Shown here in pieces: positions 3,001 through 6,000 of a DNA stretch of 64,000 bases. The position numbers were made by a program. Numbering within the stretch: the stretch's first letter is position 1; every line of letters starts with the position of its first letter. The stretch lies in the NCBI RefSeq assembly GCF_057098645.1, contig NZ_CM169472.1; one strand, given 5' to 3'.

Positions 3001-6000
3001 CGGTTTTCAGCATCTTTTCGTTTGATAACAAAAGGGATATTGCCCGCAATATTACCTTCACAATCTTGGGGGGTTACGGTTAAGGTGATTGAACCATCGA
3101 CAGTAGTCTTTGCCGCTTGTAACGTATCGTCATAGCCACTGGCGCTAATTGTCACCAGGTCGCCCTGGGCGGGAGCAATATTCAGCGTCACTTTATGTTC
3201 AGCCAACGGCACCGTCCCCTGATTAGGCACACCAGTTAACGTGTAGAGGTAGAGTAAAGGTAGCGCTTCCTGCTCATTGATTCGCGGCCACGCCACCAAA
3301 GAACGCCCTGCCAGATTCTGCGCGCAGAAAGAGCGGTCCGGGCGCGGTTGTGGGCTGAGCGGCGTATCTGGCGTCGCGGCATCCGCCCACACAAGAGATA
3401 CAGCAGGAGGCGTCTGGTTTTGCCAGCCTAGCACGGGGGGATTAGAAAAAAGATCGCCTTCAGGATCGTGAGGGTTAACCAGAATCATTCTCGCCGCTGT
3501 GTCATCAACACTGAATGCGATGGGTTTTACAGATGCCTGAATGTCGTAGGTTTTGCTCGGATCAAGCTGAACGCTTCCCTGATAAACGGGTACGCTGGCG
3601 CTCTCTGCCCCGGGCACTGTGCCATTGATTGCGTCGGTCGAGATGCCAGTTTGTTGCCACTGGCCACCTTTTAATACTGCCCCAACCTGAAAAGAGAGGA
3701 AGAGCAGAAAAACCGCCGTTATCGCTTTTATCAGTTTCAAAGTCCCGTCCATGATTGAAACCTGCCCGTTTAAAGTTATTTTTTCACTTCAACCCACTTT
3801 GCTTAACGCTGGCTAAGCAAAGTGTGCGGAGAAGCACCATTCATTCCCTTGCTGAAATGACCAGATTGTTGACAAAGTGCGCGTTATTCATGCCGGATGC
3901 GGCGTTAACGCCTTATCCGACCTACAAAATCGTGCAAATTCAATACATTGCAGGAACCATGTAGGCCTGATAAGCGAAGCACATCAGGCAGTTTTGCCTT
4001 TGTCATCAATCTGACCATTCCCTTGCGGGAATGGTGCTGGTAAAGATTATTTTCTCTGGTAATCGATGGACAAACCGTAGCCCTGAACACCATCCGCGCC
4101 AAGGGTGAGGCCACCTTCGCTGTAGTCGAACGCAGTTTTCGCTTCGGCGTTGGTAACTGGGATAACCAGGTCGCTGTTGTTGTAGCTCGGGTTGACAATC
4201 CCGCCGTTGGTACGCAGTTGCAGACTGGTACCGGTAAAGCGCCAGCGGTAGTTGTACTGGCTGGTAACCTCTTCGCCAGTGTCGTAGGAGCCGTTGCTGT
4301 TTTTATCTTTCCACAGCATGACCTGATAAGTGGTATTGGTTTTGAGTTTGGTTTCTTTGCCCAGCAGGTTGGTGTTAACACCCTGCTCATGAATGACAAC
4401 TTTAACCGCATCGTCAAATACCGGACCTTCCGGAATATCATCGCTGTCAGAACCACCGCCCGCGTTGGTGGAGAGGTCTAACAGGATCAGTTGTTCTGCA
4501 ACGTTAGGATCACCGGTCGTGGTGGTCGGGGTAATTTTCAAACCGATGTAGCGATCGGCATCCGCTGCGGCAATGGTATAGGTGTCACTGCCCGTTGTAC
4601 CGATCTCTTTCGGATCACCCCCCGCCTGGTCGCTATAGCTCATCCATTGCAGCGTCGCTTTGGTTGCAGTGTTGTTGTCGTCAAGGTCGCCCTGGGTATC
4701 GCCAATGGCCCAGTTTGCAGTTAACTTGTCACCAATATGAAATTGCTTCTCGCCATCGGTTGAAGCAGAACGTCCGCCACGATCAACGGTAATGGACACA
4801 TGAGATTTATCAGCATCGATGATTTCCGTCGCGCTACGAGTGATCCACGGCACTGTACCCTGAATCGTTCCGGTAGTTTCTGTCTCTGATTGCCACTGAC
4901 CCGCCCTAAGGTTGCCCTGCCCTTCTGCCATAGCAGCAGGCACTGCGCAGTATCCCGCTAAAGCCAGCGCCAGCGCGACTTTAGTCATCGGTCGCTTTAA
5001 ATAGTGTTTCATTCAACTCTCTCCTTGATTAATTTCCAGCGACTGGCCGATCGGCCATTACGCCGATCTAGTGCTTGCTGTAAACCACACGTAATCCATA
5101 CCCCTGCACGCCATCCTCTTTTTGGGCACCAAATTTCTGTACCGCTTCCTCGTTAGTGGCAGGGATGACAATATCTTCATTACTGGTATTCGATTGCGCA
5201 CCGGTGTAGCCATTGACGCTGTGTCCGGTAAATTCCCACTGGTAGTCGTATTGCGCCATTTCTTCTTCCGTCAGTTTTTCCGACTGCTGGAAAACGCCAT
5301 CTTTGTTGACATCGCGCCACAGGACAAAACGATAGGCGTTATCAACAGGCAAATGCTCTTTCTCATTGCCGATAAGATTGATGGGGTTAGTCGCGGATAC
5401 ACGGTAGATAAAGGCATTAACATCATTGCCCCCCGCGCCGAGGAAAGTCACATCGACATAGTTACTATCGTCATACGGTGCGGCCTTTGCTTTCCAGCGG
5501 AAGGTGCCGGGCAAAGTACTGGAGAGGGTGACGGTTCCTTTCTCTTTATCTTGCTTCGCGATAAAGACGCACGGGTTATCGGTCGAGCAGGGTTTATTGG
5601 TGAGGGTGACTTTTTTATCCTGAGCATCGTAAAGCTGCGGACTCAGGCCATCTTCCGGCAGCGCATTACCGTTACGGTCAGTGTCATCACCAAAGCTATC
5701 GGTAACATCGAGATCCATCACCACGCCATCGACGCCATCCGCCTGAGCGCTGGCTTCATGACTGTGATTGTTTTCATCCGGCACATCCGCAATGTTGTTG
5801 ACGATCAGTTCAATTTTGCGATCCTGCTGAACGGTGATTTCCACCACGCCGGAGTTTTGCCGGTTGCCTTTTTCATCTTCCAGAGCCAGACGCACGCGCC
5901 AGGTATTGAGTTTTTCCTGTTCGGCGGGATCAGAGCTGTACTGCCAGGCTGGCAGCACCAGATTCCAGTGGTTGTTGTTCCCTTCCGTGAGGGTATTTTC

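What the first reader, a model, noticed from the sequence alone, without database searches (positions are those of the whole stretch)
4047..5012. Stand-alone secreted paralog of the SinH passenger C-terminus
The 321-aa product has a signal peptide and strong SD, and its last ~100 residues align convincingly with the C-terminus of the sinH-like gene (YRWRFTG/YQWEFTG; DLVIPVTNAEA/DIVIPATNEEA; DGVQGYGL in both). A free copy of an adhesin tip domain could act as a soluble lectin, decoy or partner; that is speculation. It appears intact while sinH is dead.
Basis: partly seen in the sequence, partly recalled or inferred. Interest (0 to 1): 0.45.

Follow-up and report, generated by a model that had tools for sequence, protein, structure and literature searches.

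The report
sinI, known partner gene of SinH

Summary
The ORF at 4047..5012 (- strand, 321 aa) is real and intact. It is sinI. It scores 419.8 bits against NCBIfam NF040711, "SinI family autotransporter-associated protein" (cut-off 165), and is 100% identical to WP_022581395.1 of E. coli C325.

SinI residues 202-320 align with SinH residues 609-725 (BLASTP 40% identity, E 3e-18; hhalign E 3.8e-18). A classical Sec signal peptide and an AAGGAG Shine-Dalgarno site are present.

sinH is indeed dead, three times over: IS1 at codon ~26, IS5 at codon ~185, and W400 changed to a stop.

The gene is not stand-alone. It is the middle gene of a conserved sinH-sinI-ratA-like operon. Only its last third is SinH-like. 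The remainder is a short N-terminal tag plus an A9/SCAB-type Ig domain shared with ZirU-family proteins. The predicted fold is two beta-sandwiches, not a C-type lectin.

The SinH/SinI similarity and the ZirT/ZirS/ZirU-type partner model are already in the literature (Kingsley 2003, cited in Heinz 2016; Goh 2019).

The locus differs from strain C325 by 2 SNPs in 6.7 kb, so an intact sinI next to a dead sinH says nothing about selection.

Two minor extras: a W-x6-T-x4-GT-x-P tag shared with RatA-like proteins, and an EF-hand-like loop in the shared domain.

The parts
4047..5012 (-). sinI coding sequence, 321 aa, intact (SinI family autotransporter-associated protein)
   Evidence: NF040711 at 419.8 bits against a cut-off of 165, covering 2-299 of 299 profile positions. 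100% identical to WP_022581395.1.
5021..5026 (-). Shine-Dalgarno AAGGAG, 8 nt upstream of the sinI ATG
   Evidence: Read directly from the sequence.
4926..5012 (-). Sec signal peptide, aa 1-29; predicted cleavage AMA|EG
   Evidence: n/h/c layout and the -3/-1 Ala rule. Conserved in the family alignment A1. Not run through SignalP.
4839..4913 (-). Mature N-terminal tag, aa 34-58: NLRAGQWQSETETTGTIQGTVPWIT. Pattern W-x6-T-x4-GT-x-P, shared with RatA-like proteins.
   Evidence: hhalign of A1 against the RatA-like N-terminus aligns 25 columns, E 8.5e-5. A motif HMM hits RatA-like N-termini at E 7.7e-7, 7.1e-6 and 5.4e-4. The invariant residues have the same spacing in A1 and A3.
4473..4805 (-). 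N-terminal beta-sandwich domain, aa ~70-180, A9/SCAB-Ig type; also present in the ZirU family
4413..4472 (-). Gly/Asp-rich linker, aa 181-200 (STNAGGGSDSDDIPEGPVFD)
   Evidence: Dip in pLDDT in the AF2 model. Conserved GGG...D.P.GPV in A1.
4053..4409 (-). C-terminal beta-sandwich domain, aa 202-320, paralogous to the SinH C-terminal domain
   Evidence: AF2 pLDDT 85-92.
4272..4307 (-). EF-hand-like 12-residue loop DKNSNGSYDTGE inside the shared domain (putative Ca2+ site)
   Evidence: Positions 1, 3, 5, 8, 9 and 12 are conserved in 27-30 of 30 homologues. The SinH counterpart is DVNKDGVFQQSE. Inferred from the motif only.
5074..5424 (-). The matching C-terminal domain of the sinH remnant (SinH aa 609-725)
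5068..6694 (-). sinH remnant, codons ~185-726, with an in-frame TGA (W400*) at 6049-6051
   Evidence: NF033423 and IAT_beta hits. SNP relative to L001.
6695..7888 (+). IS5 inserted in sinH at about codon 185
   Evidence: blastn breakpoints against L001. Flanks CCTAAG/CCTAAG. 326-aa transposase ORF at 6762-7742.
7889..8372 (-). sinH remnant, codons ~26-185
8373..9140 (+). IS1 inserted in sinH at about codon 26, with a 9-bp target duplication CGCTTTGCT
   Evidence: insA/insB ORFs.
9141..9225 (-). sinH 5' end (start codon at 9223-9225, signal peptide)
3..3752 (-). RatA-like giant adhesin gene (BIg21 + InvE_AD repeats), third gene of the operon. Open to the window edge; 2139 aa in L001.

Best explanation
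This is sinI, the second gene of the sinH-sinI-ratA-like adhesin island. That island is called CS54 in Salmonella and ila in uropathogenic E. coli, and it sits between xseA and the zinc-ribbon gene/der.

Shown here:
- SinI is a 31-kDa acidic protein (mature form) with a Sec signal peptide and no beta-barrel.
- It has two predicted beta-sandwich domains.
- The N-terminal part is a conserved tag plus an A9/SCAB-type Ig module. It is shared with ZirU-family proteins and other proteins encoded next to inverse autotransporters.
- The C-terminal domain is an old paralogue of the distal domain of SinH and contains an EF-hand-like loop.

Inferred, by analogy with the tested ZirT/ZirS/ZirU system and from strict gene linkage:
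- SinI is exported to the periplasm by Sec.
- It needs the SinH inverse autotransporter to reach the cell surface or medium.
- There it acts together with SinH and the RatA-like protein as part of a multi-protein Ig-type adhesion system.

In this window sinH has been destroyed by IS1, IS5 and a nonsense codon. sinI is therefore a very recently orphaned gene. It is probably poorly transcribed, because it is reported to be co-transcribed with sinH. If it is made at all, it is probably trapped in the periplasm.
For: Identity:
- NF040711 at 419.8 bits against a cut-off of 165.
- 100% identical to an annotated SinI.
- 169 close homologues in Escherichia, Salmonella, Citrobacter, Kluyvera and other genera, many named SinI.

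Anatomy.

Linkage:
- An IAT_beta gene lies 55-80 nt upstream of the SinI-like gene in every complete locus examined (L001, L003, L005, L006, L007, L009), and a third secreted Ig-type protein follows.
- Partial contigs L002 and L011 show the same gene order, and L008 has an IAT-type C-terminus upstream of its SinI-like gene but no third partner gene.

Old paralogy, kept in parallel:
- C-domain identity is 61-71% between SinI proteins and 57-71% between SinH proteins.
- It is only 36-44% between SinH and SinI of the same locus.

Analogy:
- ZirS secretion strictly requires ZirT, including in E. coli K-12 (PMC2270342).
- Heinz 2016 and Goh 2019 propose the same relationship for SinH/SinI.
- sinH and sinI are reported to be co-transcribed (review PMC12525524 citing Shea 2022).

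Orphan status: three lesions in sinH, and only 2 SNPs in 6694 bp relative to strain C325.
Against: - No experiment on SinI secretion, location or binding was found in the searchable literature.
- Goh 2019 showed that the E. coli SinH orthologue IatB forms biofilm without the downstream protein.
- SinI is not a member of the ZirU family by the curated score (25.8 bits against 100), so the analogy rests on one shared domain and on gene order.
- An AF2 model of a SinH-passenger/SinI fusion gave pTM 0.49 and no clear sign of docking.
- How a folded-passenger inverse autotransporter could also translocate partners is unresolved in the field.
- Expression of sinI in this strain was not tested. Promoter-like matches are at chance level: 7 found against 7.9 expected.
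Confidence: 0.6

Rival explanations
1. SinI is a periplasmic helper rather than a cargo. As an Ig-fold protein, it would bind the SinH passenger and/or the giant RatA-like protein in the periplasm and assist their export. It would never leave the cell.
For: Ig-fold proteins often serve as periplasmic chaperones, a point made in Heinz 2016. SinI shares a domain with SinH and an N-terminal tag with the RatA-like protein, so it could mimic or cap either one. Gene linkage is strict.
Against: The tested relatives ZirS and ZirU are found in the medium. IatB works in biofilm assays without the downstream gene. An EF-hand-like loop is more typical of extracellular modules.
Confidence: 0.15
2. SinI is an autonomous soluble lectin or decoy that carries a free copy of the adhesin tip. 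It competes for or pre-occupies the SinH receptor, and it is kept by selection even after sinH is lost.
For: The tip domain is truly shared. The SinI-type copy is the better conserved of the two across distant loci. sinI is intact here while sinH is dead.
Against: No lectin fold was found. No route across the outer membrane is evident without SinH. Intactness is uninformative, because the locus differs from a strain with intact sinH by only 2 SNPs in 6.7 kb. In E. coli XJ34, sinH and sinI are lost together in a deletion. Every SinI-like gene whose upstream DNA was recovered has an inverse autotransporter there.
Confidence: 0.08
3. In this particular genome sinI is simply a silent remnant. The IS1 and IS5 insertions and the nonsense codon upstream abolish transcription and translation coupling, so no SinI is made and the gene has no present function.
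For: sinH and sinI are reported as one transcript. They are separated by only 55 nt with no terminator-like site. Two IS elements and a stop codon lie between the sinH promoter region and sinI. No better-than-chance internal promoter was found.
Against: IS elements can supply outward promoters. The strong Shine-Dalgarno site allows independent translation. This reading is compatible with, and partly included in, the best explanation.
Confidence: 0.5

Closest known systems
SinI (SivI) of Salmonella enterica CS54 island / SinI family NF040711; EcSMS35_2660 downstream of iatB in E. coli
   Same: Same family by the curated model (419.8 bits). Same length and same position downstream of sinH. 66-68% identity to Salmonella members. 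Same C-terminal similarity to SinH, already reported.
   Different: Nothing of substance. This is the rarer E. coli allele, found by megablast in 48 of 5426 complete genomes. Here it sits next to a sinH killed by IS1, IS5 and a stop codon.
ZirS/ZirU, exoproteins of the ZirT inverse autotransporter (Salmonella zirTSU)
   Same: Barrel-less, Sec-dependent Ig-type proteins encoded directly downstream of an inverse autotransporter. SinI shares the A9-type Ig module with the ZirU family. ZirT-dependent secretion has been shown experimentally.
   Different: SinI scores 25.8 bits against the ZirU cut-off of 100, so it is not a member. SinI has an extra C-terminal domain copied from its own transporter's tip. 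SinH-dependent secretion has never been tested.
TpsA/TpsB two-partner secretion (e.g. FHA/FhaC)
   Same: An outer-membrane barrel is encoded next to a Sec-exported cargo. The cargo's conserved N-terminal element, the TPS domain, is what the transporter recognises. The short tag shared by SinI and RatA-like proteins could play a comparable part.
   Different: The barrel family differs (12-stranded inverse autotransporter, not Omp85). The tag is ~25 residues rather than a ~250-residue TPS domain. No functional evidence exists.
Intimin D3 / invasin D5 C-type lectin-like tip domains
   Same: Located at the distal C-terminal end of an inverse-autotransporter passenger.

Membership tests
SinI family autotransporter-associated protein (NCBIfam NF040711) | Full-length match above the curated cut-off | tested here: met
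   419.8 bits against 165, E 7e-126, residues 7-318 on profile positions 2-299 of 299.
SinI family autotransporter-associated protein (NCBIfam NF040711) | Encoded immediately downstream of a SinH-type inverse autotransporter | tested here: met
   55 nt downstream of the sinH stop codon. Same order in L001, L003, L005, L006, L007 and L009, and in the partial contigs L002 and L011.
SinI family autotransporter-associated protein (NCBIfam NF040711) | No beta-barrel (IAT_beta) domain; Sec signal peptide | tested here: met
   No Pfam hit at E <= 0.1. n/h/c regions with AMA|EG. SignalP not run.
SinI family autotransporter-associated protein (NCBIfam NF040711) | C-terminal domain similar to the SinH C-terminus | tested here: met
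   E 3e-18 by BLASTP and E 3.8e-18 by hhalign.
ZirU family (NCBIfam NF040485) | Match above the curated cut-off | tested here: not met
   25.8 bits against 100. Only residues 67-213 align. The two share a domain but SinI is not a family member.
Inverse-autotransporter-dependent exoprotein (functional class of ZirS/ZirU) | Secretion to the surface or medium that requires the cognate inverse autotransporter | not testable with these tools
   Shown for ZirS/ZirT only. No SinI experiment was found.
Inverse-autotransporter-dependent exoprotein (functional class of ZirS/ZirU) | Physical association with the transporter's passenger domain | tested here: inconclusive
   AF2 on a SinH-passenger/linker/SinI fusion gave pTM 0.49 and only a small pLDDT rise in the tag region. 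No contact map was available.
Pfam IG_AIR9 (PF23197) / SCAB-Ig (PF16709) Ig domains | Domain match above the gathering score | tested here: inconclusive
C-type lectin-like adhesin tip (intimin D3 / invasin D5) | C-type lectin-like fold | tested here: not met
EF-hand-like / DxDxDG calcium-binding loop | 12-residue loop with acidic or amide side chains at positions 1, 3, 5, 9 and 12 | tested here: met
   DKNSNGSYDTGE in SinI and DVNKDGVFQQSE in SinH, conserved in 27-30 of 30 homologues. This tests sequence pattern only. Calcium binding was not tested.

The most novel reading that the evidence does not exclude
SinI and RatA-like proteins both carry a ~25-residue segment directly after the signal peptide, with the pattern W-x6-T-x4-GT-x-P. 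A weaker x-G-x-[IV]-x-G-x-x-P version appears at the mature N-terminus of other proteins encoded next to inverse autotransporters, including one ZirU-family protein. This segment could be the address tag by which an inverse autotransporter recognises its partner proteins. It would be a miniature counterpart of the TPS domain of two-partner secretion. That would give the disputed 'type Ve two-partner' model a testable sequence handle.
Probability: 0.2. Interest if true: 0.5.

Novelty: already known. Interest (0 to 1): 0.12.

Why it matters
For the scan it matters little. The gene is named and catalogued, and its resemblance to SinH was reported in 2003 and discussed again in 2016 and 2019.

SinH is being pursued as an ExPEC vaccine antigen. 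Whether inverse autotransporters can export partner proteins is still an open mechanistic question. SinI is therefore a reasonable but already recognised test case.

Three small additions come out of this work:
- A domain map of SinI.
- The N-terminal tag shared with RatA-like proteins.
- A putative calcium loop in the domain shared with SinH.

A natural strain with sinH dead and sinI intact could serve as a ready-made background for complementation tests.

Tried and rejected
- Sequence search of solved structures with SinI found no hit at E <= 10.
- Pfam on SinI gave no family at E <= 0.1. The weak DUF5057 and GEVED hits on the SinH C-terminus are below threshold and are not used.
- BLASTP of SinI against the RatA-like protein found only the 21-residue N-terminal match. 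All other pieces are noise.
- AF2 of a SinH-passenger/SinI fusion, meant to detect docking, was inconclusive (pTM 0.49).
- An exact-match scan of species-representative genomes for the IS1/sinH junction found nothing.
- Megablast of both IS junctions against 5426 complete E. coli genomes found no genome with either junction. The source strain and its lineage remain unidentified. I suspect a Shigella-like, IS-rich background, but that is only a guess.
- The promoter and terminator scan was at chance level.
- Kingsley 2003, Prehna 2012 and Shea 2022 are not in the held library. They are cited second-hand through Heinz 2016, Goh 2019 and a 2025 review.
- The idea that the SinH and SinI C-domains are homogenised by gene conversion is rejected. 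They cluster by protein type, not by locus.
- The idea that Cys22 marks a lipoprotein is rejected. The sequence LAGYC has Tyr at position -1 and does not fit a lipobox.
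Full report
**What is there.** The window region 1-12000 is an E. coli-type chromosome segment. Reading the minus strand, the order is bamB, der, a zinc-ribbon gene, the sinH locus, the ORF in question, and then a very long open frame that runs off the window's left edge.

The ORF at 4047..5012 (-) starts with ATG and ends with TAA. It is 321 codons long and is preceded by AAGGAG 8 nt upstream. The nearest complete genome, E. coli C325, matches window 1-6694 at 99.97% with 2 mismatches. It annotates the same genes as sinH, "SinI family autotransporter-associated protein" and "adhesion domain-containing protein", between xseA and der.

**Check of the observation.**
- BLASTP of the 321-aa product against the 316-aa sinH C-terminal ORF gives 40% identity over 111 columns, E 3e-18.
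- The family profile against full-length SinH aligns SinI 202-320 with SinH 609-725 at 99% probability, E 3.8e-18, and aligns nothing else.
- The N-terminus has a +4 n-region, a 15-residue hydrophobic core and AMA|EG. This layout is conserved in 30 homologues. SignalP was not available.
- The protein is 321/321 identical to WP_022581395.1.
- sinH is broken three times: by IS1 (8373-9140, 9-bp duplication, codon ~26), by IS5 (6695-7888, codon ~185), and by TGG changed to TGA at codon 400 (6049-6051).

**Identity.** The product scores 419.8 bits (E 7e-126) over the full length of NCBIfam NF040711, "SinI family autotransporter-associated protein", whose cut-off is 165. A search of 5.8 billion proteins finds 169 relatives. 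Most are 57-98% identical and come from Escherichia, Salmonella, Citrobacter, Kluyvera, Superficieibacter, Leminorella and others. Many are already named SinI. This is sinI.

**Prior literature.** The resemblance to SinH is already published.
- Heinz et al. [quoted passage not shown] 2003)" (PMC4943183).
- Goh et al. 2019 say the same for the E. coli pair IatB/EcSMS35_2660 (PMC6714894).
- A 2025 review reports that sinH and sinI are co-transcribed in the "ila" island (PMC12525524, citing Shea 2022).

Only the last third of SinI is SinH-like.

*N-terminal domain.*
- An exhaustive HMMER search of 1.84 billion representatives shows that residues ~90-175 form a module repeated up to 21 times in giant proteins.
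- The five giant repeat proteins scanned are strong Pfam IG_AIR9/SCAB-Ig members.
- The same module gives a weak ZirU-family hit (E 1e-5, 25.8 bits against a cut-off of 100).
- Bona fide ZirU-family proteins and a 360-aa class of "third gene" proteins reciprocally hit the SinI profile in their N-terminal halves.

*Structure prediction.*
- AlphaFold2 on a 30-sequence alignment gives mean pLDDT 77.5 and pTM 0.64.
- The model has a disordered signal/leader region, a beta-rich domain at ~56-180, a Gly/Asp-rich linker, and a second beta-sandwich at ~200-320 with pLDDT 85-92.
- Foldseek finds no PDB match at E <= 0.001.
- There is no C-type lectin-like fold.

*Shared C-domain.* It contains a conserved 12-residue EF-hand-like loop, DKNSNGSYDTGE in SinI and DVNKDGVFQQSE in SinH. 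Its liganding positions are conserved in 27-30 of 30 homologues. This suggests calcium binding, but it was not tested.

**Context and evolution.** I fetched the DNA around eight further SinI-like proteins, from close relatives (Salmonella, a second E. coli allele, Leminorella) to distant ones at 30-42% identity.
- Wherever enough upstream sequence was available, an IAT_beta inverse autotransporter lies directly upstream.
- A further signal-peptide-bearing Ig-type protein follows in all but L008. It is either a RatA-like BIg21/InvE_AD giant or a smaller Big-domain protein.
- sinI is therefore never stand-alone in this sample.
- Within the enterobacterial group, C-terminal domains are 61-71% identical among SinI proteins and 57-71% among SinH proteins. 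SinH and SinI of the same locus are only 36-44% identical.
- The duplication is therefore old, both copies have been kept side by side, and there is no recent gene conversion.

**How it most likely works.** The steps shown are these: SinI has a Sec-type leader, no barrel and two Ig-like sandwiches. One domain is shared with the transporter's distal end and one with ZirU-type exoproteins. It is tightly linked to an inverse autotransporter.

The inferred step is that SinI crosses the outer membrane with the help of SinH and then works with SinH and the RatA-like protein as a multi-protein adhesion system. This is modelled on ZirT/ZirS, where secretion of ZirS strictly needs ZirT even in E. coli K-12 (PMC2270342).

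I put about 0.5 on that mechanism, and near certainty on the identity.

Points against the mechanism:
- No SinI experiment was found.
- IatB makes biofilm without its downstream gene.
- It is topologically unclear how a passenger-carrying barrel could also export partners.
- My fusion model of the SinH passenger with SinI was uninformative (pTM 0.49).

**What the dead sinH means.** It means very little.
- The window differs from C325 by two substitutions in 6694 bp. One is the sinH nonsense codon. The other is S304T in the RatA-like gene.
- None of 5426 complete E. coli genomes carries either IS junction.
- The inactivation is therefore recent and private to this lineage, and sinI has simply had no time to decay.
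- sinI follows sinH after 55 nt with no terminator-like site, and no better-than-chance promoter is present. It is probably poorly expressed here. If it is made, it would lack its presumed export partner.
- Another strain, XJ34, has lost the sinH 3' end and the sinI 5' end together in one deletion. This shows that the locus decays as a unit.

**A side observation that may be new.** SinI and the RatA-like protein both begin, directly after their signal peptides, with the same ~25-residue segment.
- The sequences are SinI NLRAGQWQSETETTGTIQGTVPW and RatA-like [23 protein letters not shown].
- The similarity is significant: hhalign E 8.5e-5. A motif HMM built from SinI proteins hits RatA-like N-termini at E 7.7e-7, 7.1e-6 and 5.4e-4 among 218 sequences, and hits no transporter.
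- The residues invariant in the SinI alignment (W40, T47, G52, T53, P55) correspond one-to-one with invariant or near-invariant residues of RatA-like N-termini (W32, T39, G44, T45, P47).
- A degenerate x-G-x-[IV]-x-G-x-x-P appears at the same place in distant SinI-like proteins, in third-gene proteins and in one ZirU-family protein. These weaker cases are not individually significant.
- The segment could be a recognition tag for the transporter, or merely a shared structural strand. This is speculative.

**Verdict.** Interest is low.

Noticed in passing
window 4839-4913 (-) and 3612-3674 (-); loci L005, L006, L007: SinI and the RatA-like giant adhesin share a ~25-residue segment directly after their signal peptides, with the pattern W-x6-T-x4-GT-x-P. 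It is invariant in both families (hhalign E 8.5e-5; motif HMM E down to 7.7e-7). It may be a recognition tag for the SinH transporter. I have not seen it described.
   Followed up: partly
window 4272-4307 (-) in sinI; the matching SinH loop DVNKDGVFQQSE within 5074-5424 (-): An EF-hand-like 12-residue loop (D-x-N-x-N/D-G-x-Y/F-D-x-x-E) is conserved in the domain shared by SinI and SinH. This is a putative calcium site, inferred from the sequence pattern only.
   Followed up: partly
window 6049-6051, 6695-7888, 8373-9140: sinH carries three independent lesions: W400* nonsense, an IS5 insertion, and an IS1 insertion with a 9-bp duplication. Neither IS junction is present in any of 5426 complete E. 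coli genomes, so the source strain is not in that collection.
   Followed up: yes
window 3900-3990: REP/BIME-like palindromes (GCCTTATCCGACCTAC... and GTAGGCCTGATAAGCG...CATCAGGC) lie in the 294-bp spacer between sinI and the RatA-like gene.
   Followed up: no
window 5045-5056: A perfect 12-bp palindrome, GGCCGATCGGCC, sits in the 55-nt sinH-sinI spacer. No T-run follows it, so it does not look like a terminator.
   Followed up: no
L012 (E. coli XJ34) 4001-6117: A deletion joins a 3'-truncated sinH to a 5'-truncated sinI. Both are annotated as pseudogenes. This is a different route of decay for the same locus.
   Followed up: partly
window 4047-5012 against the E. coli genome collection: This sinI allele is rare. 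Megablast finds it in 48 of 5426 complete E. coli genomes, many of them O145:H28. A second E. coli allele (P0098/L006) is only ~62% identical at the protein level.
   Followed up: partly
window 4947-4949 (-), SinI Cys22: A single Cys lies inside the signal peptide and is invariant in 30 homologues (AGYC). It does not fit a lipobox because Tyr is at position -1. The reason for its conservation is unexplained.
   Followed up: no
L002 3082-4164; L011 2155-3243: Some loci encode a third partner of ~360 aa. It reuses the SinI N-terminal tag and A9-type Ig module, but ends in a Big_2-like domain plus a Lcl_C/DUF1566-like (lectin-like) domain. The partner proteins are therefore modular, with a constant front half and exchangeable tips.
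   Followed up: partly
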